The notes beneath the pieces are model-generated. The model saw only the letters and a program-made list of their open reading frames with translations, searched no databases and had not been told where the DNA came from. From the NCBI GenBank assembly GCA_045837725.1, contig JBEWZL010000024.1, forward strand, positions 1 through 32,532: a stretch of DNA of 32,532 nucleotides, given 5' to 3'. This stretch comes from Vermamoeba vermiformis (lineage: Eukaryota). This document shows positions 1 to 32,532 of the stretch, piece by piece; the first letter of the stretch is position 1, and every line of letters begins with the position of its first letter. A program made the translations under genes and the position numbers.

Positions 1-104
1 GAATGCCTGCGCTGCTCGTGGGGGTAAATTCAGCTTTATTAGGGGTGGTGGCTCCCCGTCACCCCCCGCCACGGGTTGGGGCTAACGAGAGCACCAAAGC
101 CCCC
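1..104. repeat. Split direct repeat B2 (3' terminus of element)
   Basis: Identical by eye to 337-440 (gaatgcctgcgc...caaagccccc); contains a minus-strand AATAAA (tttatt 35-40). Confidence 0.95.
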
Positions 105-137
105 TATTGTACAACGTGAATAAAAATAAAAATTAAA

Positions 138-337
138 AAGAAAAAATTAACAAATAAATATTAGGCTCTGTCAAATATACGAGCCTTGTGGTAGTCTTGG
201 CGTTGGCGTTCGACACTTCTATTTCCTCGAACTTCCAATTTTGGTGTGAATCGCACGTGACTTCTCCACCAGGGCTGCCAAAAACCGATCCGCTTGGCCT
301 ATTCATACGCTAAGTGCTGCGTCACTGTAGCTGCACG
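138..337. repeat. Split direct repeat A2
   Basis: Matches 4503-4701 except one indel in an A-run (ccaaaaaccg vs ccaaaaccg). Confidence 0.95.
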
Positions 338-440
338 AATGCCTGCGCTGCTCGTGGGGGTAAATTCAGCTTTATTAGGGGTGGTGGCTCCCCGTCACCC
401 CCCGCCACGGGTTGGGGCTAACGAGAGCACCAAAGCCCCC
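337..440. repeat. Split direct repeat B1
   Basis: Identical to 1-104; abuts A2 at gctgcac-g-aatgcc, the predicted circle-junction sequence. Confidence 0.95.
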
Positions 441-469
441 AAACACAGCGAACGAGCCCCCAAACCAGA

Positions 470-1545
470 TCATTGATAGATTGCCGCCGCCGTCGCCAGA
501 GACAAGGAAGAGCAGCGCTCAAAAAATTGAGGAGTTCTCATCGCCTCGATGATCGCCTGTGGGACTGACAAGCGCTGATCCAGAGAAAAAGTGACGTAAC
601 GCATGTAGGCGTCTGACACCCAGTCTCCTTGAGCCTTGACCATCACCCTGTCCGCTCCCGCGATGAAGGCTCCCGTCGTGCCACCTTTACGCAGCGAGTG
701 TGCGGAGAAATCCTTCGGATCCAACCCGCACTGAAGGCAGGTCTTCTTGATCACTGGAGAAAACAGGTAAGTAAGCACAATATGCAACTACTGCCACGAT
801 ACTTACTATCGTTAAGCTTCGAGTGCACCAGCGGCATAACTCTACCGTCATCACCTTTAAAACAAAAAATCGACCCCGATTCAGGCATGGGACACAAGGC
901 CCACATCGCCTCCAGGGCCACTTCGGGACACAGCGCATTTCCCGGTACTGAGAGCAGCGGGATGATCAGCCTTCTCTCGTTGAATTGGACTGTCTTCGTT
1001 CGATTGAGCGAAATTAAGAAACCACGCTCGTTCCTTGACAAGTTCAACGCGCTGAGATGCTTTGCTGGGTCGAATTTCTTCGCAGATTTCTGCACAAGGT
1101 TTCCACCCCGAAGAAAAGACCAGAAGCCGACCACGAGGCAAGCCCAGAAAGTGCGGTGGAGAGATGATGACCAGTCTAAGCACGCCTTGAGTTTGAGCAA
1201 CTCCACAGGAGTGAGAGGGTGCTTGCTCGACGGTGTGTAGGACTGCGCGCGTTTAATGCCCTTGAGGACCACCTTGAGGCGAAGGCTGTCACGCGCTGGG
1301 TGTGGGCCACCATGCAACTGTTGAAAAGCGAAAATGGCTGTCAAGTATGTCTTGATCGAACTTGCCTTGACGCCATTATTTGCAAGATATGCCGCGTAGT
1401 CGGCCAGGACAAACTCGTTCGTCGGGAAGAATGTTCGATTCGAAGCGTAGCAGAACCTGGCAAAGGCCGAAACCACTGCCTGCCTGGCCTTGACCGTGGA
1501 GTCCACATAGCCGAGGCCAATGTAATCTTCCGCTGTCAAAGACAT
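470..1545 (-). CDS. Tyrosine recombinase of the retroelement, 2 exons (1545-807, 753-470), 340 aa
   Basis: Catalytic R in FLRGGNL, HSLRKGG (HxxR), GDWVSDAYMRY (W and Tyr nucleophile). The two ORFs join in frame by removing a 53-nt GTAAGT...CTCCAG intron (806-754). Confidence 0.92.
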
Positions 1546-3170
1546 TCTGGATCAAACTCGGGGCACAACTGCATGGAGAGCCCTTTGTCAATCAGTTTGT
1601 CGAAATTCAATCGCGAACCCGCATCTGCCAGGTCGTTAAGAACCCCCGGTACGTGGACCGCAGTCAAGTGAAAGTTGTGTGTCGCTGATAGCCAAAACAG
1701 AGACCGTAGCATTCGCATGATGATTGGGGATGCTGAAGACCCCTTGTTGATGGCCGAAACGGTCGTGGTATTGTCCGATGAGACGATCACCCGCTTGTTG
1801 GCCCATTCTGGGGCCCAGCGAAGCGCAGCCAAGTAGACTGAAAGGCACTCCTTATCATTGATGTGCCACGCAGATGTCAAAGGGTCGTGGATCCGCACGA
1901 TGAAGTGCTTGTCGAAGATAGCACACGCAGCACTATTTGAGGCGTCCACCTCAAACCGACGCATGTCAATGGGCATTGGGTCCAGCATAACGGCTTTGCC
2001 ATTCCAGGCGCTCGCAAATCGAAGCCACCAATCCAAATCTGCACGGAATTCATCGTCTAGAGACACCACGTGATGTCGCTCTGGGACCGAGTTGGCCAGG
2101 ATGATCATGCGGCGGAGGAAAGTGCGTCCGCCCCTGATCACTTTAGCGCCGAAGTTGAGCTTACCAATCAAGCGCTCCAGATCGCGCTTAGTGCACGAAA
2201 CTCGATCCTTGAAGCTCCGTAGAATGTCGAGAAGGTCAGCTAGCTTGTCTTCTGGTAAAGAAATGATGCGATCATGCATATTGATGCGGATGCCAAGGAA
2301 GACCAGATCCTGACAGGGCTCAACCATCTTCTTCTCTGAAATTGGCCAACCCAATTCGGTTAGACACTCGCGGAAATTGACGAAGTCTTTCCAAGCTTGA
2401 GCGCGTGCAGCATCAGAGTCAGTGCCAACAGAAAGCACGAGGAAGTCGTCAATGTAGGGCAAAATGAAGGCCACGTTAAAGAACTTGTTGCCTACTCGGA
2501 CAATGAAATTAGAAATTCTCCAGAAAACGTAAGGAGCTGAAGCTAGACCAAAGCAGAGGCGCAGATCGATGTAGAAGGTGCCACGCCACTCGAAGCCAAA
2601 GTAATGCCAGTCACCCGGCCAGATCGGGACATGACGATAAGCTGTTTCAATGTCGAACTTGCAGCTAAAAACCCAAGGGTTTTCCATTATGAAGTCGCAT
2701 GCATCATCGACCGTGCTAAACTGAAAATTGACCAAATCAATGTATTCATTCAACGCCGCACCCTTTGGGCGACTGAGATCAGTAATGCGACGGAACTTGC
2801 CTTCGCTCTTCTTGACTGCACCAAGAGCATTGACTTTGTATGGTTGGACTGGCAGTACTGCAATGAAACCCTTCTCTAGTTCCGTCATAATGTCTTGGTG
2901 GATGAAGTCTTCGCACTCCAAGACACTAGCGTAGTTCGGCAAGAAAGACGCTGGCACAGCCACACCCTCCTTGACAACTCGAAGGCCACCACCAGGCTTG
3001 AAAATGTCGGTCAGGAAGTCGGCGTCAGAGTCCCCCACCAAGAATCTCTTCCACTGATTGAAGCGGAGGGTCACTGCACTAGAGCGGGCTACGATCTCTA
3101 CTCCCGGCGCTCCGCAGACGCGCCCGATGAACTCGTCTTGCCGGGATGGCCTTTTGGGCCACTGGAGCAA
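1536..3170 (-). CDS. Reverse transcriptase / RNase H (pol)
   Basis: FRRITDLS, KFDIETAYRH, LCFGLASAP, YIDD; RNase H motifs DAS, HINDKE, SDN, HVPGVLNDLADAGSR. No ATG near the 5' end, so probably reached by frameshift from gag. Confidence 0.95.
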   Translation of the reverse strand: MLQWPKRPSRQDEFIGRVCGAPGVEIVARSSAVTLRFNQWKRFLVGDSDADFLTDIFKPGGGLRVVKEGVAVPASFLPNYASVLECEDFIHQDIMTELEKGFIAVLPVQPYKVNALGAVKKSEGKFRRITDLSRPKGAALNEYIDLVNFQFSTVDDACDFIMENPWVFSCKFDIETAYRHVPIWPGDWHYFGFEWRGTFYIDLRLCFGLASAPYVFWRISNFIVRVGNKFFNVAFILPYIDDFLVLSVGTDSDAARAQAWKDFVNFRECLTELGWPISEKKMVEPCQDLVFLGIRINMHDRIISLPEDKLADLLDILRSFKDRVSCTKRDLERLIGKLNFGAKVIRGGRTFLRRMIILANSVPERHHVVSLDDEFRADLDWWLRFASAWNGKAVMLDPMPIDMRRFEVDASNSAACAIFDKHFIVRIHDPLTSAWHINDKECLSVYLAALRWAPEWANKRVIVSSDNTTTVSAINKGSSASPIIMRMLRSLFWLSATHNFHLTAVHVPGVLNDLADAGSRLNFDKLIDKGLSMQLCPEFDPECL

Positions 3171-4480
3171 TGAAGGACATTGTGATTGGAGGACTTACAG
3201 TCAGAGCAAGAATGAGAGTACTCGCATGCATCAGAGCTCTTCGAACAACCCTTGTGACCGTTGAAAGCAAAGCAGACACCCTTCTTCTTCTTGGTGCCTG
3301 AAAAGGCCTTGGGCTTGTTGTCCTGCTTGGCCTCGGCACGTTGATGAATTGGACGCGCTCGAAGAGTAGTGAAGAGGCTCTCCAAGGGCCTGTCTTTCCA
3401 GCGAAGCTTGCCCACTGCTTGGAGCGATCTGAGGCGCTCGTCCAGTGCCATAACTGAGAGCCATTCGTAGCCATCACCAAGCTCCACGATCCAGCGGACA
3501 AAGGCATTGTAATCTCGCTCGACAAAACCTTCCTCCTTCTCGAGGAGGTCCTTGACTTCCCACGACGCTCGGATATAATCCTCCGCGTTCTGTGGGACCT
3601 TAGCCTGCGAGGGTTGCAACCTCTTCTCCAATGCCTCCTTGGTGAAACAGCGCGGGAGATAGACCTGGCCTGGCTTCCTCAGCTCGACTGTCGCTTGGAC
3701 GTCCGCCAGTTGACCAACAGGGGTGGCTTTCGACGTTCCGTGGATCAAAGATTGGCCCCAGGGCTGAGGCAAAAGCAAGTTGTTGATGGGGCTCTGGGGA
3801 ACGAGGCTCCCGGCTAGCGAGTCCAACTGCGATTTCATCGACGACAACTTGAGCTCCAATTGGGCGATAAGTGCGTCAGCACCCGCCGCCACCTTAGGGT
3901 CTTTCGCCAAAGCGCTAGGAGGGGGGACATCCGTGATCTGAACTGCTGGAGCTGTAGCAGGGGTCTTCGGTTGAGACTCTCCGATCTTCTGCCGTTTATT
4001 GCGCTTCTTCTTCATGTACTCTCGGACAGCTCGGGCAATCTCCGCTTCAGTACTGTCTGAGTCTTCTGAATCTTGGTCGCCATCCGAGTTGATCTTCTCA
4101 GGAGACTCCGATGGGCGATCCACTGGCTGAGGAGGTCCCTGGGACGACCAATTCTCCACCCGTTTAGTCACTGGGGCCAACAACGGCAACAGCTCCGGAT
4201 CCTCCACTAAATCTGCCGCCTTGGAGTAGATCCGAGAGATTTCCTCCTTCGACACTGCTGGACTGCGCTCCAATTGATCAAACTCCCCTCCTAAGCAGTA
4301 CGCCAACGCCAGGGAGCATAAGAAGCGAAGCTGGTCCACATCTGACCCAGCCTGATCTATGATCGACCATTTCACGGATCCCAGAGCTTGCTTCCAGAGT
4401 CGCGCTTCAGGCCAGTTTGAGAGTAGTGGGGTCTTGAGTGTCTCCACTAGGTTCTGGATAAACGATTGTCTCGCAGTCAT
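3098..4480 (-). CDS. Gag-like ORF1 with C-terminal Cys/His zinc-binding region
   Basis: 460 aa, ATG just inside repeat A1; CFAFN..GC...C...H.C..C....H....C motif typical of YR-retroelement ORF1; overlaps pol. Confidence 0.85.
   Translation of the reverse strand: MTARQSFIQNLVETLKTPLLSNWPEARLWKQALGSVKWSIIDQAGSDVDQLRFLCSLALAYCLGGEFDQLERSPAVSKEEISRIYSKAADLVEDPELLPLLAPVTKRVENWSSQGPPQPVDRPSESPEKINSDGDQDSEDSDSTEAEIARAVREYMKKKRNKRQKIGESQPKTPATAPAVQITDVPPPSALAKDPKVAAGADALIAQLELKLSSMKSQLDSLAGSLVPQSPINNLLLPQPWGQSLIHGTSKATPVGQLADVQATVELRKPGQVYLPRCFTKEALEKRLQPSQAKVPQNAEDYIRASWEVKDLLEKEEGFVERDYNAFVRWIVELGDGYEWLSVMALDERLRSLQAVGKLRWKDRPLESLFTTLRARPIHQRAEAKQDNKPKAFSGTKKKKGVCFAFNGHKGCSKSSDACEYSHSCSDCKSSNHNVLHCSSGPKGHPGKTSSSGASAERRE
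3102..3158 (-). promoter_or_regulatory. Putative -1 ribosomal frameshift signal (gag to pol)
   Basis: C_CCA_AAA heptamer (3158-3152) in gag phase, pol is in the -1 frame, 5-nt spacer, then stem-loop UCCCGGC/GCCGGGA (3146-3140 with 3108-3102) enclosing AGACG/CGUCU. Confidence 0.7.
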
Positions 4481-4502
4481 CGTTGAAATTTATTTCCGAA
4501 TT

Positions 4503-4701
4503 AAGAAAAAATTAACAAATAAATATTAGGCTCTGTCAAATATACGAGCCTTGTGGTAGTCTTGGCGTTGGCGTTCGACACTTCTATTTCCTCGAACTTC
4601 CAATTTTGGTGTGAATCGCACGTGACTTCTCCACCAGGGCTGCCAAAACCGATCCGCTTGGCCTATTCATACGCTAAGTGCTGCGTCACTGTAGCTGCAC
4701 G
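4503..4701. repeat. Split direct repeat A1 (5' terminus of element)
   Basis: Near-identical to 138-337; sequence switches to AT-rich host coding DNA immediately after 4701. Confidence 0.95.
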
Positions 4702-5376
4702 GATGGAGAGTACTTTAAACCGATCTTGTCTTATTTAAGAACTGGCGAGCTGGAAATACCACACGATATGTCCCATAATAGAGTACTACGTGAAGCAGAA
4801 TATTACAACATTAGATTGCCAGAAATAGAAGTTGACGAATCCGAATCCAACGATCAACCAAGACAATTGCTAAAATTCAATGGAATATACGTCTCATCTG
4901 ATTTAAGCAAAGGCCTATTATTTTTGGATGATAAGAACGTGCTGGTCTACAAAACAAACGAAAACGTGATGGAGCGCGAGGTTTATCATTATCCCATGAA
5001 CGAGCTGCAGATTTCGTTTGAAGGAAATTTCTTTTTATTGGACAAATACCTTATTAACAACTCGATGAGCTTTGATTTTTATACCGGCGAATTACCCAAG
5101 CCAAACACCGATTACAAATGCCATCAAGACAAAAAACTAATTTTAGCGCTAAGTTTCAGACCGAACCAACAGCTGAATATTATAGGCACGCATACGAAGA
5201 CTATGAATACTGATTATCACGTGTCAAGAACACCGCGGAACATTCCGATCATCTTGCTGAAGAATTGCAATGTTTTAGCGGCCGAGAAAACAAACACGTT
5301 CTCGCTGATTTATTGTTTCGGCGATATTTTAGTGGCCTGCACGAGCAGCATGCAGTTCATATTAGTTAGGACCTAG
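4702..5376 (+). pseudogene. 3' part of a BTB/POZ (KCTD/T1-type) gene interrupted by the retrotransposon
   Basis: Begins DGEYFKPILSYLRTGEL...VLREAEYYNI, the second half of the KCTD BTB motif (FIDRDG.F..IL.YLR.G); the first half is absent from the window. Confidence 0.8.
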
Positions 5377-8178: not shown

Positions 8179-10090
8179 CTAACAGTATTGCAATTGAGCT
8201 AAGAGAACTACAATTTGATCCATCAACTGACGAGCAGGACCAGATCCAGCGGCGTTTTGATTTACCATTACTGAGAATACGATAGGATTGTACTGGCCGG
8301 GACGCAAGACATATCCAGCCAATGTATATGTATCAGACAGCGATCCTATAGTTATCGATATTCAATTAGTCTCACGAGAACCTCTTATAGATCTCGATCC
8401 GATCTTACCAGTCTTTGCAAACACAACGCCTTGAGCAGGAGTGCCAACGAATCTATATTTCAGCGTACCAGACTCGCCTATATAAATTATATGATAAATT
8501 AGTGCCAGATAAGATAAGGTAACGGATCGCATCTGTTTCGTACCGGCAACAGGAAGAATGTTCACGAATGAAGGTGCCTTCTGTAATATGGCTCTTAAAA
8601 ACAGTACGAGTGATTTAGGACTGATTAAGTTCTTGCGACTCAATCCACTGCCGTCAGCTTGAATGAACAGATCGCCGTCCACACCCAAATTAGTGAGAAC
8701 GGACCTGACTTTAGCCAAGCCGTTGTCAACCTCGTCGAGATTAGCTACAATGTCATATTAGTATATGATTTCTTTAGTACTTTGCTTTGGACTTACGATC
8801 TGAGATGAAATTTGTTCCTAAATGTCTGAGCCACATTTCAGCCTCCAAATTAACGCTCCATTGCAAAGTATTATTCATCATAACATATAAAGGCGGCGAG
8901 GTGAGCGAAGCCGCCGATTGAACGATGAACTCGTTGCTGTCGTCGAACGCGATCTGTTGTTTAATCGCTTCCATCGTGTGCAAGCCCTCGTGCGTGACTT
9001 GAATATTGTTGTTTTTCAACGCAGCCACGAATTGCTTTTGGAAATAGAGCGCTGTATCGGCCACAGCAACACTAACATCGAACGATTGCGCGCCAACGCT
9101 AACTTGACCAGTCAACTTGAGGTAAGTGGTGCCCCATTGATAATTAGCATCGAGTGTATTGACATTCGGAGTTGAGGCTGCAATAATATTAGTTCATAAT
9201 AATAATCAATAAAACGTTCTAGGACGCAGAAAAAAAATTACGAAAAAGATAGATACAAGCTGATTCAAAAGCAAACTTACTAGTAGCAACGTTAATGATT
9301 AACTTGCTCAACAAATAGTCTTGATCGGCGCTATTATAGAACTTGACTTGGACATTTTGGCTCGGATCTGAAGGCGGGACAACAGTAAAGGTAATAACGT
9401 TCTCATTCAATACAAAAGGTGTCGGCAGAGCACCCTATATTCCAGTTATTAATATGCATCGTATATTTATGTAACTTACGTAATTGGCGGTGAGATCGCC
9501 CCAATCCCAAGTGCTTGGTGGTTGTAACGCCTTAAAATACGATTGATCGACGCCAACAAAATTAACTGTGGTAATTCCGCTTTGAGACAATTGACTGGCG
9601 AGCTGATCAAGCTTCTGGAAGGTCAAAGAGGGGTCACCGCGTCCTTTAGAAATTTGATCAGCTCAGAAAACGAGTTAGAAAAGTTACCTGTCACAATTAA
9701 TACATCTACAGTGCTTCTACTATTTGCTGCTGTAGCCTTGCTCGTGTATGTTGTAACGTCAGTTTTAATAGCGTAGTCAGGGCCGAGAGACAGCAAGGCA
9801 GATCCAGAAGTCAGCACTTTATTCGTAGATGCAGGCAAAAAATAGTTTACAGCATCCCCTACGATTAATTTATTATTTGATTATTATCTAACTGATCCTA
9901 ACCGGATTTGAAAATATCTCAATTAAATTAACCAAAATACCTACGTGAGTAAAGAGGCTTTCCTTGCCACGTTTGATTGTTAATCTCTTCTACATAAATT
10001 CCCCAACGTGAATGGGTTACAACGGGACTGTTTGCAAGAAGATTGTCAATTAGGCTCTGTAATTGCGAGGGAATTTGACATTTTCTTCCC
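8179..10090 (-). CDS. D-Ala-D-Ala carboxypeptidase/endopeptidase, peptidase S13 (PBP4/DacB-like), intron-containing; 5' exon not found
   Basis: PASTNK (SxxK), SVN (SxN), DGSGLSRKNLISP, LPVAG..GTLKYRF, AKTG motifs spread over exons with GT-AG introns. Confidence 0.88.
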
Positions 10091-25149: not shown

Positions 25150-27603
25150 ATGGAACCACCAAAGGTATTAAACAAAAATAGCAAAATGTTAGCTAATAGA
25201 GTTCTCGTGTCGTTTCTAATGATCTGTCCGATCTGCAGGGAGTCAAGAGAAAATTGCAAGATATTCAGCCAGACGATGATGGCCCTGCACAAAAACAGGC
25301 CAGAGTAGAGGAGGATGACGATAATGGCCTCGATGATATTGATTTAGACGATCTGCAAGATAACTTAGATGAGGAAACAATTAATAAATTACTTTCAAGA
25401 GCTAAAGACGTAAGTTTATTAACAGATAGAATATTTTATGAATTTACAAATTTAATTGAAATTTATTGGAGCGAATAATTTGGCAAAGAAAAGTTTTATC
25501 AGATGCACCGTTACTGACCACGCCTCAAAATAATTTTAAACACTTTATAATATTTATTCTACGTAGGTCGAAGTTTTGGACGTCCCGGGCATGAAGCGAT
25601 TGATCGCTTCGTTTGAACGAGCCATCACAAAAAATCAACAATTCCGTATTAAATTTGCCGCTGAGCCAGAGAAGTACGTAATTGAAATTTAATACGCTAC
25701 GCGAGCATAAATATGGAACCTTATTTTAATTACACTGGGTCTCGGCCTGTGTGCATGTGACCGTACTTTAGGACATGTTGCTAACTAGTGCTTTAGATTC
25801 ATGACCAGCGAAGTCGACTTGGACGAAGAAGTCAAAAAATTACACCCAATTGCTGCTAACCCCGAGCTGTACCCAGAATTTATTCGCATTGAAGCCCACA
25901 TTTCCTTATTAGGCTTGCTGACCCACGAGAACACTGACATTGTGTGCGATGTCATTTCACTTTTGAAAGAATTGACGGGCACGCCTGAAGAGGCACGAGA
26001 AGAACAGACCGTGGATCTGCTCGTCGATGCTTTGGTACGATGAAATTTCATTATAATAGGCCTTCATGAAACTAACACTAACAAAAATACTTCCCACAGT
26101 TGTCGAACAAGTTGTTAGAGTTAATGTCACAAGTGTTGAATCGATTGGACGAGAGACAGCCCGATGAAAAACAAGGAGTTTACAACACGCTTGAAATTAT
26201 TGAAAATTTGACTGAAGTTGATGTCGCCATTTGCAAACAAATTGGCGAGAAGACCGACATAATCAAATGGATTTTAAAGCGTTTGCAAGTCAAGGAGTTT
26301 GATGACGTCAAATTGTAAGTGGTCCACGTGAGAATAATATTATTCTCGTACAAAGCTAACGTTATTTTTCCAATTAGGTACGCCAGTGAAATTTTATCAA
26401 TTTTAGTTCAGAATTCAAAAGACAATCAACTCCTCGTTGGCAAATTGAACGGCATTGACACTTTGTTATCAGCTGTTGCCGTAAGTAGCGTGGATATAGC
26501 CTCTAAATAACTTATTATTAACGACGGTATTTAGTTATATAAGAAGACCAATCCTACAACGATTGAAGAAGAAGAGCTCGTGGAAAATATTTTCAACAGT
26601 TTGTGCGTTGTCGCTGTACTTCAAGACAATAGAAAATATTTCACTGAAGCTGAAGGATTGCGACTATTGCAAATTATGATCAAGTACGAGACCTATTACT
26701 ATTACGTACGGTTGTTAAATTGTTGCAATGCTTACGGTTACTATTTTAGGAACAAAAAGTACGCGCGAAAGTCAGCTTTGAAGCTATTGGATTTCTGTTT
26801 GGCACGTGACGCTGACAATTGTCGACGATGGGTTGAGTTGCCGGCTCTGGGTACATTATTTGCTGCGTTTATGAAAAAGGTACGTCCTCTAGTAGTGCTA
26901 TTTTCGAGTCGTTTTTTGACGAGATCCGGATGCAGAACAAGACCGAGAAGAAGAAGCCCAAGAAAGGTTTCTCCGAGTCTGAAGATGACGAACATATTAT
27001 TTCTTGTATATCATCGCTATTCACGTGCTTGCGCTCAGATTCTAATTTGTGGGGTCGTGTACTTGAAAAGGTAAGTTAGATCGGATCTTTTACCCATATT
27101 TTAAGACTCCTTTGCGTTCAATATTAACAACCATTAATGGTAATAGTTCCGAGAAGAAGGCATGGAGAAAGTTGAGCGATTATTAGAATTGCACGAGAAG
27201 TACACAAAGAAAGTGGATCAAGCCAACGCAGCGATCCGACGTGCAATTGAAGAACGAATGGCCGAAGGCGAAGAGATAAGCGAGGCAGACGAAGACGAGT
27301 TCTATTTGATGAGACTAGACGCTGGTCTATTCACTCTACAGTTGGTCGATTTCGTTATTGCTATCATTTGCAGTGCGGATCCGAAGATCAAGACAGCTGT
27401 TAAAAACTTGCTCGGCTTGCAAGGCTCGAGCTTTGAAGACGTCAAGACAATTTTGAAAGGTAATACTATTTAAGTGCTTAAACACAGATCCAAGTCTAAC
27501 GAGTTATTCCGCAGGGTACGCCGACAGTATTGGTACTGCAAACAGCGAGGAAGAAGCGCAAAAAGAAAAGAATTACATTCAAGGCCTAGCTGCTGATTTG
27601 TAA
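25150..27603 (+). CDS. CTNNBL1: Beta-catenin-like protein 1 (Prp19-complex spliceosomal factor), multi-exon
   Basis: RIKFAAEPEKFMTSEVDLDEE, PELYPEF, LLTHENTDI, YASEILSILVQ, EKVERLLELH, FYLMRLDAGLFTLQLVD. Confidence 0.93.
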
Positions 27604-27828
27604 GCATTTTGCAATGAATAAACCTCTATCAGAGGAGGTTTGAACAAGGTCAAATCAAGTTTTTTACGACTTGTATTAAAAAACGAAATTTCAGAATTTA
27701 TCTATATCGTTACAATTAGAATCTTGGTAGAAATCTCAAAAACCCCGCTCTTTGCCACTAGTTTGGTCAACGGACTATGAATTTGATTTTTACTTTCCTT
27801 TTGCACAAAGCGCCACAAGTCAACCTAA

Positions 27829-28700
27829 ATGAATCCCATAAATTGCGTCCTATCGTGTGGAGAGGATAAGCAGAGTTTTCATTTCTCCGCAGATGACACC
27901 CCGGAAAGTCGAGAAGCCACAATTCGTCAAGCGTTTGGGCTTCCTGAAGGCATTCCAATTGTGGTGATCGAGAAAATTCCTCAACCAGGTGGTGGTGTGA
28001 AGCAGCACGTCGTTGGTTTAATGGCCCTAAGTCAGCCTGGGACCTACGAAGTTTCTTTAGGTATTTGCACATCAATTATTTACTGCAGCAAACTAAAGTT
28101 GATATTCTAACATGAAAAGAACAACGAGCGTCATTTATAACTGAACCAACACATCTTGTCTTGCGATCCACGAAGAAGAAGAAAGAAAAACCAGAAAAAA
28201 TTGAAATTTCAACAGTATTTACCGAGGTCGACTTTGTTTCCAAATATGACGAAGTGAATGGACTGCAGCTGTTGTGTCATTTTGCAGTCTCTTGGGGCAT
28301 CAGCAATAGTCAGGGATTCGACACGCACGGCTCTCCGTTCTACATCTCTTCACTGGATGCTAGATGCACTTTACTGGCGGCAGGTTAGTGAAATCGCCCC
28401 ATGTTACAATTAAGTCCTAATATATTTTGAGCAGAAGGTATGACCCTCTTGACTAGAGATCACCTCCCGAAAGACGAATGGCAATCAACTTCAAGAACTG
28501 ACACCCGGGGCTGGAACATTGGCGCTGAATTAACCATTCCTAACGTTGCACAATCGGGTGCGAAACTAGGCTTCGGATATACGTCTACTAAGTCACACCA
28601 ATCATCTGCAACTGGAATGGTAGCTACTAACCACGAGTTCTGGCCAGGCAAAGTTGACGATGTGCAAGCTCATATTCCTATTTCGGCGAGCACACTTTAA
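27829..28700 (+). CDS. Hypothetical 3-exon protein with a leukocidin/hemolysin-like beta-hairpin segment, possibly truncated
   Basis: Three consecutive plus-strand ORFs separated by intron-like gaps; DHLPKDEWQSTSRTDTRGWNIGAELT...GAKLGFGYTSTKS shows Ser/Thr-rich alternating pattern. Confidence 0.5.
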
Positions 28701-29229
28701 TAAATTTATCGCCGAACAGCAACCACACATCAACGAATAAACTTAACCGGTGATAGAACAGCTTATATAGTATATAATAGTCAGCAAATTAATCGTCAGC
28801 GTGGTCGTACTGTAAGGTAAGATCCCCGGCACTTTAGCATCTGATAAAATTTTTGTTCAACTATGAATTATATGATTCTGTCTATTATATTTCGCATATA
28901 TATATATTATACCAATTATTGGTGCATAACAGAGCTTGAATTACACCAAAATTGAATTTTTTCGGTTTATTCGATCTGGCTCGGAAATTATCGTTTTTCC
29001 AAAATAGCTTGGCAGCAATACTTCATAATTTAATATAATACAAGGAAAATTATCTAAAGTATGATTTGCAGAAATTTTGTACATTCGATACTGCTGTGCC
29101 CCCATCCGCGAACTCTCTCTCAAGCAACAACAGAACAATCAAAATTGGCCTGGGAGTGGTTCTAGTTATCAAGTATGTAATGCTTTAGCACTATAGATAA
29201 GAATGCAACTGATTCTCAATAGTATAGGA

Positions 29230-32159
29230 ATGGCTGCGATTGTGAATGAAGGTGCGACGTGTTACATCAGCGCATCTCTTCAGTTATTGTACAGTTTAGC
29301 ACCGTTGCGCGAGCAAATCTTAATATGCAATCCTAAAACACCTCTTGGACTTGAATTGAAGAAGATATTTGTGCAAATGTCACAATTAAAAACCGTTCAA
29401 ATTGGGCAACTCGCAACGTTAATGAACATCAGCAAGTCAGACTGTCGACATAAACAAGAAGATGCCCAGGAATTCATCATTAGTGTTGTTCATAAATTGG
29501 ATAAAGACAAAGAGATGAAAAGAATTTTCTCGTCGGTGTTTGCAGGTTCGACTGTTACCACAATATCTGAGCGAAACATTGAACCATTTTTGGGTAAGTG
29601 CATTGATAGTTTAACGCAACTCTGACAGCAAAGTTGCAGATTTGTCCGTTCCAATTCCAAAACACCCGGCTCCAACTCTGATTGAATGCATTCAGTTATT
29701 GTTCGACAACAATACAAAGTTTCATTCAATGCCGCAAGTACTGCTGTTGCATATAAAGCGATTTTCGGCCACTAAAAAGCTTACTTCTCGAGTTGAATTT
29801 CGAGCAAAGTTGACAATACCAGCAACATTAAATGACAACAATTGCGCAGAGGCATTCAAGTTGCAGTCGTACATTGTCCATCAAGGTTCCAAAAACAAAG
29901 GTCACTATTGGACAAATAGTCTTTGTAATGGACAATGGATGGAATTAAATGACACAAAAATAACTAAAGTAAGGTATATCATTTTGTAGGCAACTTTCTG
30001 ACATCAATAGATTAGTGGAGCTGCCAATCAAAAGTACTTTGAAGGCGAGTCTGTCGGATACCTAGTTGCATATGTTCAAGAGAGAGCTCAATCACCAATG
30101 AAAGCTAAGAGAGCTGCTACCAAGAAAATTGATGATGATTATATGGACTGGGATACAGCATCAAGCTCTGATATGCCAGCAATTCACTCTATTGATAGTG
30201 ACTCTTACGAAGCAAGTGAAAGTGTTGACTCTGACTACTGGTTTGAAGATTATGAGTGTGAGGAAGTATCGGATGAACAGCCAAAAGTAAACAAATTTGC
30301 TGATGGTAAGTAATAAGGAATGCATTGATATTAATCTAATGGATTCCCAGTGAAAAAGCAAGCTGAAGTTGAGGGCTGGAAGATTGACGGCAAAAAGTTC
30401 AAATCCAAGAAAGATTACATCCCTCCTCCTGCTCCTGGCCCAAAGCGTGCAGTAATACTTCAGATAATCAACCAAATTCGGCAGCTACACAATCAATCCC
30501 AATTACAATCAGTTCTTAATGTCAGTCCCCTTGATTGTTACTTGTTGCTAATGGAGGAAGTTATTAACCACATTGTTTCCGAAACCAACAAGCAAAATGA
30601 CAAATTTAAGCTCACTTATAGTGATATTAGTGCGTACATCGGAGTAAGGATAGCCCAGCAATTATCTCCAAGTCATGCTATTGATGATGCTTGGGCAACA
30701 TTCAAGTATTCAAGAGGAATGTGGGGTAATCGTTGGATTGCCAAAACAATGCTCAAAGATGAATACAAGTTCATACACAGCAACAAGTCGTAAGTGATTG
30801 TGCTGCATTTATCAATACTAATTCATTCAGTTTTGATCTTTATCATGTGTGGCGGCTCTTAAATGAGAAATATTCCTCAATTTGGACCCCTTATGGAAAC
30901 TTGGCACTTGATGATAAAGCAAATGCATGGAAAGGGCGTTCAATTTATCGAATTTACCGTCAACGGAAACCATTCCCATGGGCAATGTTAGAATACATCA
31001 CAATTGATGAAGCAGGCTGGATTGTAGCATTCATTCCACGTTATGGAGATTTTGCTAGTGTTACAAAGCAGTATCAACAGTGGAAAGAACGATATGACAA
31101 TTGGTTGCAAAACAAAGGAGATAAACCACCAGCATTCAAACGCTTGTTCCCAAGTGCCAGCAAGACAAACTTCAATTTACACATGGCTATCAATTTTTTG
31201 TTGTCAAGACTTCCTGACACTGATGGCAATTTGGCACCCTTTATAGTGTCTCCATGGACAGTTGATGACTGGAGTGCAATATTCTCTCGCGATATTTCCA
31301 ACTATCAAATATATTGTGACAGAGAGTTCAGTTCTTATTGGCATCACTTTCGTCAATTCAAAGGTCTTGGATATACCTTGGGCATTGCTTCTGGACACCA
31401 CACTCATCTATTCCGCGACAACTTAGCCGTTGGTTTGAAAATTGGAGACTGGCATTCATTAACGGATAATTCAGAAGTCATTTTGACATATTCTGATCCT
31501 CAAGGGTCAGTTTGCCATTGGGTTAGTAACAGGCATTCTGGAGAAGCTGTAGCATGCAGCAAGAAGCAAGGCAACAAGCAAGTCAAAAAGCAAAAAGTCG
31601 CTTCTGTCCCTACATTAATAGCACAGTACAGAAAGCATTTTTCAGCAGTTGACTCTCATAACTCCAAAGCCAAAAAATTCTTTTGGCCACATCGCATTCG
31701 CAAGGTAAAGACAGTATTTTATCTAAAATGGTGTAACGTAACGTTTTAGGTTACTGATCGCTATGTGCTGGGAGACTGGGAGAGATCTGCTCAGGTTCAG
31801 GCGGAGCTATTGTACCAGGCTCTAACAGACAAGGACATATCATCAAAGGAATTTCTGTCCACCTTGTCTCGCAGTTTGACAGAGAACTTTGTAACAAAGA
31901 GAGAGAGATCAACTTCTGTTGAAGCATTGGACTTAGCAAGGTCAAGTGCCAAACACAATCCTTATGCACACAGTTGCACGTATACTTTTGGATCACGGAA
32001 ACGTTGCTTCCACTGCCAGAGTGAACAAGTTGATTCTTCTACAATGTAAGCTTACTTATTATTTCATTAATAACAGTCAACCTTAGGTATAAATGCCAAC
32101 AGTGTAAAGTGCACCTCCACAAAAAGTGCTGGAAGAAATTTAAAGGAGTGAATTTATAA
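29230..32159 (+). CDS. USP (peptidase C19) deubiquitinase - piggyBac transposase fusion, 7 exons, 889 aa from ATG 29230
   Basis: Exons 29230-29593, 29640-29968, 30011-30305, 30351-30789, 30831-31704, 31750-32045, 32087-32159; all six 41-46 nt GT-AG introns keep frame. USP: NEGATCYISASLQ, QEDAQEF, FLDLSVPIP, HQGSKNKGHY, WMELND. piggyBac: LALDD..AWKGR...KP..W, IYCDREFSS, YRKHFSAVD, CFHC...YKCQQCKVHLHKKC. Confidence 0.9.
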
Positions 32160-32193
32160 TTAAAATAGTAGTAATCTAGTTGTTAGTCAGGCA

Positions 32194-32321
32194 AGTGGTG
32201 ACGTGTTCCACGTTGTGGTGTGACATGAGCACGAAAGTGACTGCTGTGGTTAGACGTAAGACTCTCCACATGTATGTGTGGGTATGAGTCAGAATGAGCC
32301 TTCCACAGTAGAATTGCCACT
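32194..32321 (+). ncRNA. Putative structured RNA, copy 1
   Basis: Closing helix AGUGGUGA/UUGCCACU; arms CGUGUU/GACAUG with CCAC-GUU-GUGG, CAC-GAAA-GUG, CUGCUGUGG/CCACAGUAG, GACUC/GAGUC; covaries with copy 2. Confidence 0.6.
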
Positions 32322-32461
32322 GGTCTATTGGACTCTCCTAAGTGACGTGTTCCACGTTGTGGTGTGACATGAGCACGAAAGTGACTGCTGCAGTTAGACG
32401 TAAGACTCTCCACATGTATGTGTGGGTATGAGTCAGAATGAGCCTTCTGCAGTAGAATTGC
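32198..32461. repeat. Direct repeat, 2 x 120 bp, period 144
   Basis: 32198-32317 vs 32342-32461, 116/120 identical. Confidence 0.95.
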
Positions 32462-32465
32462 TTAG
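32338..32465 (+). ncRNA. Putative structured RNA, copy 2
   Basis: Closing helix CUAAGUGA/UUGCUUAG; CUGCUGCAG/CUGCAGUAG; otherwise identical to copy 1. Confidence 0.6.
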
Positions 32466-32532
32466 ATAAGAGTTCAAAAAACCCATTTTTCAGTGATGGG
32501 TATCGTATACCCTTGCAGTTGGTTAAGGAATA

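What the first reader, a model, noticed from the sequence alone, without database searches (positions are those of the whole stretch)
32194..32465. Tandem structured-RNA candidate downstream of the transposase: the differences between copies are compensatory
Seen: the two 120-nt copies differ at four positions only, and these form two base pairs. U32247-A32305 and G32248-C32304 become C32391-G32449 and A32392-U32448. The non-repeated flanks also covary, extending the closing helix by 4 bp in each copy (AGUG/CACU vs CUAA/UUAG). The fold is a four-way junction with a GAAA-tetraloop hairpin and a long arm with a large invariant internal loop (UUAGACGUAA / AGAAUGAGCCUU). Many G-U pairs point to plus-strand RNA rather than a DNA cruciform. 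It does not match hammerhead, hairpin, pistol, SECIS or H/ACA consensus as I recall them. Inference: an undescribed transposon-associated RNA (ribozyme, 3' processing or stability element, or transposase-bound scaffold or guide). piggyBacs are not known to me to use one.
Basis: partly seen in the sequence, partly recalled or inferred. Interest (0 to 1): 0.9.

Follow-up and report, generated by a model that had tools for sequence, protein, structure and literature searches.

The report
Conserved tandem folded RNA after transposase gene
Two copies of a 120-base RNA that folds into a four-armed shape lie just after the stop codon of a piggyBac-type transposase fusion gene in a small eukaryote; they are better conserved than the gene itself and match no catalogued RNA family, so this is a real but functionally unexplained RNA element.

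Summary
The cores are 32198-32317 and 32342-32461. They differ at four bases, which form two adjacent compensatory pairs, and the unique flanks extend each closing helix. Only the + strand folds well as RNA (z -3.3 and -3.7, against -1.05 for the minus strand; 8 of 46 pairs are G-U). Rfam gives no hit.

New evidence:
- In a relative (run X8), a spliced transcript of the orthologous gene runs into copy 1. The core is 116/120 identical, while the coding exon differs at 58 of 298 bases (Fisher p=6e-6).
- A second record, seen only as a translated minus-strand frame (P0002), holds three tandem units. Its diverged unit has 13 certain pairs and 0 certain breaks among 29 pairs. All 9 of its certain changes lie on paired positions, and two pairs changed on both sides.

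I read it as a selected structured RNA domain in the 3' part of the UCH-piggyBac mRNA, most likely a protein-binding control module. A ribozyme, a processed small RNA or a nuclease partner remain open. Function was not tested, and only a few close relatives were available.

The parts
29197..29989 (+). Exons encoding a ubiquitin C-terminal hydrolase (UCH/USP) domain, the upstream part of the fusion gene
   Evidence: Pfam PF00443: E 4.9e-11 and 2.4e-17
30335..31704 (+). Exons encoding the piggyBac-type DDE transposase core
   Evidence: Pfam PF13843 DDE_Tnp_1_7: E 3.2e-07 and 1.9e-09. Weak match to the piggyBat transposase 9c0f (E 0.0015). The aligned motifs LALDD, IYCDR and AVDS sit where the catalytic aspartates lie; that placement is my reading of the alignment.
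31750..32159 (+). Last two coding exons (31750-32045 and 32087-32159), the Cys-rich C-terminus and the TAA stop at 32157-32159. The intron is 32046-32086.
   Evidence: ORF listing. The intron is skipped (GT..AG, 41 nt) in a contig of run X8. The frame was read.
32189..32326 (+). Unit 1 with its basal helices. The core is 32198-32317. P1 is 32194-32201 with 32314-32321. An outer 4 bp joins 32189-32192 with 32323-32326.
   Evidence: Folds; covariance-model hit of 163.1 bits
32202..32227 (+). P2 hairpin of unit 1: 6 bp, a C.U mismatch, 3 bp, and the loop GUUGUG. In unit 2 it is 32346-32371.
32230..32239 (+). P3 of unit 1: a 3-bp hairpin with a GAAA tetraloop. In unit 2 it is 32374-32383.
   Evidence: In the diverged unit U3 of P0002 the loop is kept as G-R-A-A, and C-G becomes U-R in the stem.
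32241..32311 (+). P4 long arm of unit 1. The 9-bp lower stem is 32241-32249 with 32303-32311 and covaries. The purine-rich internal-loop zone is 32250-32259 and 32291-32302 and is conserved. The distal hairpin is 32260-32290. In unit 2 the arm is 32385-32455.
32318..32341 (+). The 24-nt spacer. Its first 9 nt pair back to the unit 1 flank and its last 14 nt pair forward to the unit 2 flank.
   Evidence: The spacer is less conserved in the relative: the 83-nt junction contig has 9 other letters and 1 gap.
32328..32477 (+). Unit 2 with its basal helices. The core is 32342-32461. P1 is 32338-32345 with 32458-32465. An outer 9 bp joins 32328-32336 with 32469-32477.
   Evidence: Folds; flank duplex -11.7 kcal/mol, reached by 6 of 2000 shuffles; covariance-model hit of 162.9 bits
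32481..32501 (+). A 7-bp hairpin downstream of unit 2; its loop holds the only U5 run. Whether it belongs to the element is unclear.
   Evidence: In run X8 the transcript continues past it at unchanged depth.

Best explanation
The two units are independently folding domains of a structured RNA, read on the + strand as part of the 3' region of the UCH-piggyBac fusion gene's own pol II transcript. Each 120-nt core forms a four-way junction: closing helix P1, hairpin P2, a 3-bp GAAA hairpin P3 and a long arm P4. Each core sits on a long basal helix made from its own unique flanks, which insulates it from its neighbour.

Selection keeps the helices paired while their sequence drifts. It also keeps the purine-rich internal loop and the distal hairpin of P4 almost unchanged.

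My most likely mechanism is that this invariant surface is the docking site of a trans-acting protein, present twice or three times per mRNA. The resulting RNP would control the fate of the mRNA of a potentially DNA-cutting enzyme, through its stability, translation or localisation.

Shown: the repeat, the fold, the strand asymmetry, the compensatory changes, conservation above that of the coding sequence, and continuity with a spliced sense transcript in a relative. Inferred: that a protein binds and that mRNA fate is the output.
For: - Same fold for both copies; the + strand only is favoured as RNA. 8 of 46 pairs are G-U, and DNA parameters give no signal.
- 6 of 6 variable pairs are compensatory.
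- A near-identical record (X6, 1 difference in 183 nt) has G at 32392. This makes a G-U pair with U32448, the intermediate between G-C in copy 1 and A-U in copy 2. All four copy 1/copy 2 differences are transitions.
- Run X8, from a relative, holds a contig that skips the 41-nt GT..AG intron, so it is sense RNA, and runs on to 32227, 30 nt into unit 1.
- In X8 the 120-nt core is one contig with 4 of 120 other letters and no gaps. The coding exon has 58 of 298 other letters plus 4 gaps. All 5 gaps of the piece 32087-32227 lie in the 38 nt between the stop codon and unit 1 (Fisher p=6e-6).
- 28 of the 39 listed coding differences are at third codon positions (my count), so neutral sites are far more diverged than the core.
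- The tandem layout is shared. An X8 junction contig spans the end of unit 1, the spacer and the start of unit 2. The core contig depth of 148.9 is close to 77.4 + 69.5 for the two outgoing junction contigs.
- P0002 carries three units. For positions 31-116 (29 pairs), the diverged unit U3 has 13 certain pairs, 0 certain breaks and 16 undetermined; slid partners give 3-9 breaks. All 9 of its certain differences from both window copies are at paired positions. Pairs 48-110 and 51-107 changed on both sides, and the loop-zone residues are unchanged.
- In X8, transcription continues past the only U5 run at the same depth, which argues against a pol III unit.
Against: - No relative was available as DNA. 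P0002 is a translated frame, so a third of the positions are undetermined and 16 of 29 pairs in U3 cannot be judged.
- Unit U2 of P0002 has one certain broken pair (51-107, U.C) among its 10 determined pairs.
- The 5' module (P1 and P2) of U2 and U3 differs by an indel, and its register cannot be settled. In the unshifted register several pairs break.
- The raw RNA run labelled as the window's own species (X22) laid 0 reads anywhere on 31600-32532, which the tool calls no test. Transcription in the window's own organism is therefore not shown.
- X8 is only guessed to be RNA by the index.
- 120 nt of near-invariant four-way junction is larger and more complex than most protein-binding UTR elements. 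That favours the ribozyme or RNP-RNA rivals.
- The depth step in X8, from a mean of 23.1 on the coding contig to about 70-77 from unit 1 onward, is unexplained.
- Copy 1 flank complementarity is not significant by energy alone (498 of 2000 shuffles).
Confidence: 0.45

Rival explanations
1. The units are excised from the transcript. Either a self-cleaving ribozyme of a new class does this, or a double-strand-specific endonuclease cuts the long basal helices. The products are about 120-150-nt stable RNAs, or a cleaved mRNA 3' end.
For: - The features are typical of ribozymes and RNP RNAs: a complex, near-invariant four-way junction with a GNRA tetraloop and conserved internal loops.
- The units are tandem, and each sits on a 12-17-bp basal helix built from unique flanks.
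- In X8, depth rises from a mean of 23.1 upstream to about 70-77 from unit 1 onward.
Against: - No match to any Rfam ribozyme, even at E up to 10 on 433 nt.
- No CUGANGA core (the motif is recalled).
- In X8 the junction contigs (77.4 and 69.5) are as deep per copy as the core (148.9 for two copies). In that library the units are therefore not enriched over their junctions, and the transcripts are largely continuous.
- The library type is unknown, and small RNAs would be lost.
Confidence: 0.2
2. It is an exonuclease-stalling or stability element. The compact junction blocks 5'-3' decay, or protects the 3' end, and leaves a stable 3' fragment. Tandem duplicated structures in some viral 3' UTRs work this way.
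For: The domains are tandem, duplicated and compactly folded in a 3' UTR. In X8 the region from unit 1 onward is about three times deeper than the mean of the coding contig.
Against: Ordinary 3' bias of a poly(A) library over a 2.2-kb contig explains the depth step equally well. No pseudoknot or ring-like fold was identified. There is no Rfam match to known exonuclease-resistant RNAs.
Confidence: 0.1
3. It is an RNA partner of the piggyBac-derived enzyme. The RNA is bound by the fusion protein encoded just upstream and acts as its scaffold, regulator or guide, by analogy with the non-coding RNAs encoded next to TnpB/Fanzor or IS110 genes.
For: The units start 35-38 nt after the stop codon on the same strand. 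The pairing of gene and RNA is kept in a relative. The three catalytic-aspartate motifs appear present (my reading).
Against: - There is no variable unpaired segment that could serve as a guide. The loops are invariant among units, and the variable parts are paired.
- Neither the window nor the searches link piggyBac enzymes to an RNA cofactor.
- Association is known for one locus and its orthologue. The gene context of the P0002 record, which has a different upstream layout, is unknown.
Confidence: 0.07
4. It is a small dispersed or mobile repeat (SINE-, MITE- or REP-like) that landed twice in this UTR. The hairpin shape would be a property of the repeat, not a function for the host gene.
For: - The 120-nt boundaries are sharp and the flanks unrelated.
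- A second record has three units and a different 5' module.
- An X8 contig of 629 nt carries a 41-nt piece (32348-32388) in another context.
- Earlier scan notes found that many tandem covarying hairpins are mobile repeats, in prokaryotes.
Against: - No target-site duplication, no A-tail and no DNA-level terminal inverted repeat. The flanks are inverted complements, not direct repeats.
- No other copy exists in 32.5 kb by blastn-short or by covariance model with filters off.
- The tandem pair is at the orthologous place in a relative whose synonymous sites are heavily diverged. The core contig depth there equals the sum of this locus's two junctions, leaving little room for other expressed copies.
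- No A/B box (the motifs are recalled).
Confidence: 0.1
5. It is a DNA-level feature. It could be a conserved enhancer built from bZIP-type half-sites, or an inverted repeat kept complementary by template-switch (palindrome-templated) mutation without any RNA function.
For: - Each unit holds TGAGTCA, TGACGT, three ACGT cores and three GTGAC. Shuffle frequencies are 0.015, 0.0096 for ACGT and 0.0002 for GTGAC.
- Template switching can create compensatory stem changes in one event (bioRxiv 10.1101/2021.04.15.439925; search listing and start of abstract only).
Against: - 8 G-U pairs make the minus strand and the DNA folds unremarkable. Template switching would give perfect complements.
- A G-U intermediate state exists.
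- Pairs 60 nt apart covary repeatedly, while the loops stay fixed.
- An enhancer gives no reason for flank complementarity.
Confidence: 0.06

Closest known systems
Structured 3'-end elements of transposable-element and viral transcripts, such as ENE / double-ENE triple-helix stability elements (recalled; no paper read here)
   Same: A folded RNA domain placed after a transposase-type ORF in the sense transcript, sometimes duplicated in tandem, and thought to control transcript fate.
   Different: An ENE needs a U-rich internal loop that clamps an A-rich tail. Here the internal loop is purine-rich with only UU on each side, and the only U5 run lies outside the units. No Rfam family matched.
Four-way-junction self-cleaving ribozymes in tandem repeats: natural hairpin ribozyme, twister-sister, and hammerheads in satellite DNA or retrozymes
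   Same: Size of about 100-150 nt, a four-way junction, conserved internal loops, a GNRA loop, and head-to-tail copies on one strand.
   Different: No Rfam hit at the gathering scores, or at E up to 10. No CUGANGA. The spacers are unique instead of being part of a homogeneous satellite unit. Transcripts in X8 are continuous across the units. Cleavage was not tested.
Non-coding RNAs encoded beside mobile-element nucleases: omega RNA of TnpB/Fanzor, bridge RNA of IS110 (Fanzor papers seen as search listing only: PMC10711439, PMC10312701)
   Same: A structured RNA directly adjoining, and on the same strand as, a transposon-derived DNA-cutting enzyme gene. The pairing is conserved in a relative.
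   Different: The enzyme is a DDE piggyBac type fused to a deubiquitinase, not a RuvC or DEDD/serine enzyme. There is no variable guide segment and no transposon end overlapping the RNA.
REP/REPIN- or MITE-like palindromic repeats (earlier scan notes)
   Same: Tandem hairpin units with compensatory changes next to a transposase gene.
   Different: This is a eukaryotic, intron-containing locus. The structure is strand-asymmetric and rich in G-U. It has four arms, not a simple palindrome. No other copy lies in 32.5 kb, and its position is orthologous in a diverged relative.

Membership tests
Any Rfam 15 family (4227 models, including hammerhead, hairpin, twister, twister-sister, pistol, hatchet, HDV-like, SECIS, snoRNAs, Y, vault, 5S, SRP, tRNA) | Covariance-model score at or above the family's gathering score | tested here: not met
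   0 hits on the whole window at the gathering scores. At E up to 10 on 32100-32532 there were only 3 weak hits, all outside the two cores except for edge overlap (NCRUPAR_2 at 32101-32194; two miRNA models at 32457-32514).
tRNA / tRNA-like | Cloverleaf recognised by ARAGORN | tested here: not met
   0 genes in the window
Hammerhead ribozyme | Conserved core CUGANGA ... GAAA around a three-way junction (motif recalled) | tested here: not met
   No CUGANGA in 32160-32532. The junction is four-way.
Box C/D and H/ACA snoRNA | RUGAUGA with CUGA next to a terminal stem; or hairpin-ANANNA-hairpin-ACA with ACA 3 nt from the 3' end (motifs recalled) | tested here: not met
   No RUGAUGA and no CUGA in 32160-32532. 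The ACA triplets lie inside helices, not near the unit 3' ends.
ENE-type triple-helix stability element | U-rich internal loop (about U5 on both strands) flanked by stems (recalled) | tested here: not met
   The internal-loop strands carry only UU each. The single U5 run is at 32486, outside the units.
Pol III small RNA gene (type 2 promoter) | Internal A/B boxes and termination at a T run | tested here: not met
   No B-box match. There is no T4 run after unit 1, and transcripts in X8 continue past the T5 run at unchanged depth.
Selected structured RNA (generic criterion) | Base pairs kept by compensatory change while the loops are conserved; the strand is transcribed | tested here: met
   6 of 6 variable pairs are compensatory between the copies. 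U3 of P0002 has 13 certain pairs and 0 breaks, with 2 pairs changed on both sides, but U2 has 1 certain break. A sense spliced contig runs into unit 1 in a relative. Only 2 full DNA sequences were available, so no R-scape-type statistic is possible.
Mobile short repeat (MITE/SINE) | Many dispersed copies with target-site duplications, terminal inverted repeats or an A-tail | tested here: inconclusive
   None of these hallmarks is present at the two copies, and there are no extra copies in the window. No genome is held for this window, so the genome-wide copy number is unknown.

The most novel reading that the evidence does not exclude
The units are a new class of large structured RNA that works together with the piggyBac-derived, deubiquitinase-fused nuclease encoded immediately upstream. 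The RNA could be a protein-bound scaffold or regulator of its DNA-cutting activity, or a self-processing (ribozyme) module that releases such an RNA. This would be the first RNA partner of a eukaryotic DDE transposase-type enzyme.
Probability: 0.08. Interest if true: 0.9.

Novelty: new variant of a known kind. Interest (0 to 1): 0.6.

Why it matters
Eukaryotic mRNAs rarely carry 120-nt, four-way-junction RNA domains that are held more constant than the protein-coding sequence beside them. The few known cases (ribozymes, riboswitches, triple-helix stability elements) each opened a field.

Here such a domain is duplicated and genetically tied to a gene that fuses a deubiquitinase to a seemingly intact piggyBac-type nuclease, an enzyme class used for programmed genome rearrangement in other organisms.

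If the RNA only tunes the mRNA, it is a clean new model of a structured UTR element. If it is catalytic or binds the enzyme, it would extend the theme of transposon nucleases with RNA partners to DDE enzymes of eukaryotes.

The fold, the covarying stem and the invariant loop give precise, testable mutants.

Tried and rejected
- Own genome: none is held.
- Earlier scan notes: nothing for this genome or this sequence. Word searches gave only prokaryotic repeat or defence cases.
- Public collections:
  - The loop pattern with a gap found nothing in metagenome contigs.
  - The transposase exon as a protein query in metagenome contigs matched 113 pattern stretches; none was confirmed.
  - Two patterns found nothing in viral contigs.
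  - One pattern found nothing in genome contigs.
- Protein searches:
  - The transposase exon against longer proteins found none.
  - The minus-strand frame against shorter proteins found none.
  - The representative library gave only P0002.
  - P0002 carries no accession or name, so its DNA and gene context could not be fetched.
- Sequencing runs:
  - No RNA holder is listed for the window's organism.
  - Raw RNA run X22 laid 0 reads on the whole stretch, which is no test.
  - The lay listed only 40 of 79 differing places, so three of the four core differences in X8 are unknown.
- Register of the P1/P2 module in U2 and U3 of P0002: several registers are compatible with the degenerate letters, so this is undecidable.
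- Minus-strand ORF as a real gene: rejected.
  - The copy differences are both non-synonymous (C/H and Q/W).
  - Pfam hits are below cut-off.
  - The transcripts are sense to the + strand.
  - The frame is open largely because the + strand is G/U-rich.
- piggyBac terminal inverted repeats enclosing the locus: none was found inside 27500-32532. The window ends 71 nt after unit 2.
- Literature: no paper linking piggyBac-type genes to a structured RNA turned up (listings only).

Full report
**What is in the sequence**

Tandem Repeats Finder reports a 144-nt period over 32198-32461. An offset-144 comparison shows exactly 120 shared bases, 32198-32317 and 32342-32461. The flanks are unrelated and the spacer is 24 nt. 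There are four differences: 32247/8 TG>CA and 32304/5 CA>TG.

Both copies give the same minimum-free-energy RNA fold on the + strand (-50.6 and -46.0 kcal/mol; z -3.32 and -3.67). It has five parts:
- a closing helix P1;
- hairpin P2;
- a 3-bp GAAA hairpin P3;
- a 71-nt arm P4 with a 9-bp lower stem, a purine-rich internal-loop zone (partly paired in the prediction) and a distal hairpin;
- short junction linkers of 0, 2, 1 and 2 nt.

The minus strand folds no better than shuffles (z -1.05). With DNA parameters neither strand stands out.

On the two-copy alignment, 46 pairs are all paired, 8 of them are G-U, and all 6 variable pairs change on both sides. Two of these lie in P4 and four in the flank part of P1. 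Six of 500 shuffles reach this, and slid partners give 25-47% paired.

Folding 32160-32532 as one RNA keeps both units and extends their basal helices. The stretch 32189-32192 pairs with 32323-32326, and 32328-32336 pairs with 32469-32477, so the whole spacer is used in helices. The flanks of unit 2 pair better than 1994 of 2000 shuffles. Those of unit 1 do not stand out by energy (498 of 2000). The unit 1 upstream flank does not pair with the unit 2 downstream flank.

**Context**

The units begin 35-38 nt after the TAA stop (32157-32159) of a multi-exon gene on the same strand. That gene encodes:
- a UCH deubiquitinase domain (29197-29989);
- a piggyBac-type DDE domain (30335-31704);
- a Cys-rich C-terminus (31750-32045 and 32087-32159).

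The DDE part is very diverged (E 0.0015 to the piggyBat transposase). It keeps aspartates in the three aligned motifs, by my reading of the alignment.

Upstream lie ordinary genes (OTU, PFU, CTNNBL). No inverted repeat encloses the locus within the window. No other copy of the unit exists in the 32.5 kb, either by blastn-short or by a covariance model with filters off, where the next best hit scores 9.1 bits at E 0.63.

**Known families**

Rfam 15 gives nothing at the gathering scores on the window. At E up to 10 on 32100-32532 it gives nothing inside the cores. ARAGORN finds no tRNA. Simple motif checks find no hammerhead core, no C/D boxes, no B box and no U-rich loop (the motifs are recalled).

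**Relatives**

No genome is held for this window. Scans of the metagenome, viral and prokaryote collections found nothing. Two other routes worked.

*Route 1: public runs.*
- Run X6 holds a 183-nt contig with a single difference, 32392 A>G. This turns the A-U pair of copy 2 into G-U, the intermediate between G-C in copy 1 and A-U in copy 2.
- Run X8, from another organism, holds a 2236-nt contig that matches 31748-32045 with 58 other letters and 4 gaps. It skips the 41-nt GT..AG intron and continues over 32087-32227, that is, 30 nt into unit 1. It is therefore a spliced, sense transcript of the orthologue.
- A separate 120-nt contig equals 32342-32461 exactly, with 4 other letters and no gap.
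- An 83-nt contig joins the end of unit 1, the spacer and the start of unit 2 (9 other letters, 1 gap).
- A 128-nt contig joins unit 2 to the downstream flank and runs beyond the window.
- The contig ends fall 30 nt inside the repeat, as expected from a k-mer graph, so they say nothing about RNA ends.
- The core depth (148.9) is close to the sum of the two outgoing junctions (77.4 + 69.5). That is what two identical copies at one locus give, and it leaves little room for other expressed copies.
- The core differs at 4 of 120 bases against 58 of 298 in the exon (Fisher p=6e-6).
- 28 of the 39 listed exon differences are at third codon positions (my count). The protein is therefore under purifying selection and neutral sites are far more diverged than the core.
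- All five gaps of the piece 32087-32227 lie between the stop codon and unit 1.

Limits of route 1: the index only guesses that X8 is RNA. Only 40 of 79 differing places were printed, so three of the four core differences are unknown. The raw RNA run of the window's own species label laid no read at all, which is no test.

*Route 2: the minus-strand frame.* The minus strand happens to be open across the repeat (P0001). Searching that frame found one database protein, P0002 (130 aa, a 548-nt contig, no name). It reads through three tandem units:
- U1 is like copy 2, followed by the same spacer at the amino-acid level;
- U2 is like copy 1 in its 3' two-thirds but has a different 5' module;
- a new 30-nt spacer follows;
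- U3 is a diverged unit.

From the codons I derived which plus-strand bases are certain. In positions 31-116 there are 29 pairs.
- U3 has 13 certain pairs, 0 certain breaks and 16 undetermined. Slid partners give 3-9 breaks.
- All 9 certain differences of U3 from both window copies lie at paired positions.
- Pairs 48-110 (U-A to C-G) and 51-107 (G-C or A-U to C-G) changed on both sides. Pair 35-40 went from C-G to U-R.
- The residues that encode the internal-loop zone and the GNRA loop are unchanged.
- U2 has 9 certain pairs and one certain break (51-107, U.C).
- The P1/P2 module of U2 and U3 differs by an indel, and its pairing register cannot be decided from degenerate letters.

**Interpretation**

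The combined evidence makes a selected, plus-strand structured RNA the best reading:
- a strand-specific fold rich in G-U pairs;
- repeated compensatory change confined to helices;
- invariant loops;
- conservation well above that of the adjoining coding sequence and the spacer;
- continuity with a spliced sense transcript.

Because transcripts in X8 run through both units and past the only U5 run at constant depth, the units are most simply domains of the gene's own 3' region.

I commit, at moderate confidence, to a protein-binding control module. Its recognition surface would be the invariant P4 loop and distal hairpin. It is presented two or three times, and each copy is insulated by a basal helix.

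The size and complexity of the fold, the basal helices and the unexplained depth step in X8 (mean 23.1 upstream, about 70-77 from unit 1 on) keep three rivals alive: excision or self-cleavage, exonuclease stalling, and a nuclease-partner role. A mobile repeat and a DNA-level element are less likely for the reasons listed under the rivals. The units are nevertheless enriched in GTGAC, ACGT and a TGAGTCA site. Template switching, known to me only from a listing and the start of an abstract, cannot be excluded for any single compensatory event.

**Novelty**

No family in Rfam matches the units. No paper found or 59 (listings only) describes a structured RNA beside a piggyBac-type gene. It is a new RNA motif within the known general kind of structured mRNA elements. 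Its function is untested and its phylogenetic spread is unknown.

Noticed in passing
window 1-4705: A retroelement with long direct repeats (138-283 = 4503-4648; 281-341 = 4645-4705; also 1-104 = 337-440) around minus-strand ORFs with a reverse-transcriptase domain. Its GC is 53%, against about 40% in the rest of the window.
   Followed up: partly
window 8777-9193 (-): An ORF piece matches the bacterial-type D-Ala-D-Ala carboxypeptidase family S13 (E 4.2e-08) inside an otherwise eukaryotic, intron-bearing window. It may be a horizontally acquired gene.
   Followed up: no
window 29197-32159 (+): The gene itself is unusual. A UCH deubiquitinase domain is fused to a very diverged piggyBac-type transposase with a Cys-rich tail. 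It is spliced and under purifying selection in a relative. No homologue was found among longer database proteins.
   Followed up: partly
window 32198-32461: Each unit contains GUGAC three times (element positions 1, 23 and 40; shuffle frequency 0.0002), three ACGU cores and one TGAGUCA. Two of the GUGAC copies span helix boundaries at the junction. The cause could be an internal duplication, a repeated binding motif or chance.
   Followed up: partly
window 32186-32461 (-): The minus strand is an open frame of 92 codons across both units. A database 'protein' (P0002) is the same frame over three units in another record. It is almost certainly a spurious gene call, but it was useful as a proxy for the missing DNA.
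   Followed up: yes
window 32481-32511: Two overlapping small hairpins lie downstream of unit 2 (32481-32501, and GGGUAU..AUACCC at about 32497-32511). This flank is also fairly conserved in run X8 (8 other letters and 2 gaps over 32432-32532).
   Followed up: no
run X8, contig of 629 nt: A 41-nt piece equal to 32348-32388 (P2 + P3 + start of P4, 2 differences) sits in a different sequence context at low depth. It could be a partial copy or a related RNA with another long arm.
   Followed up: no
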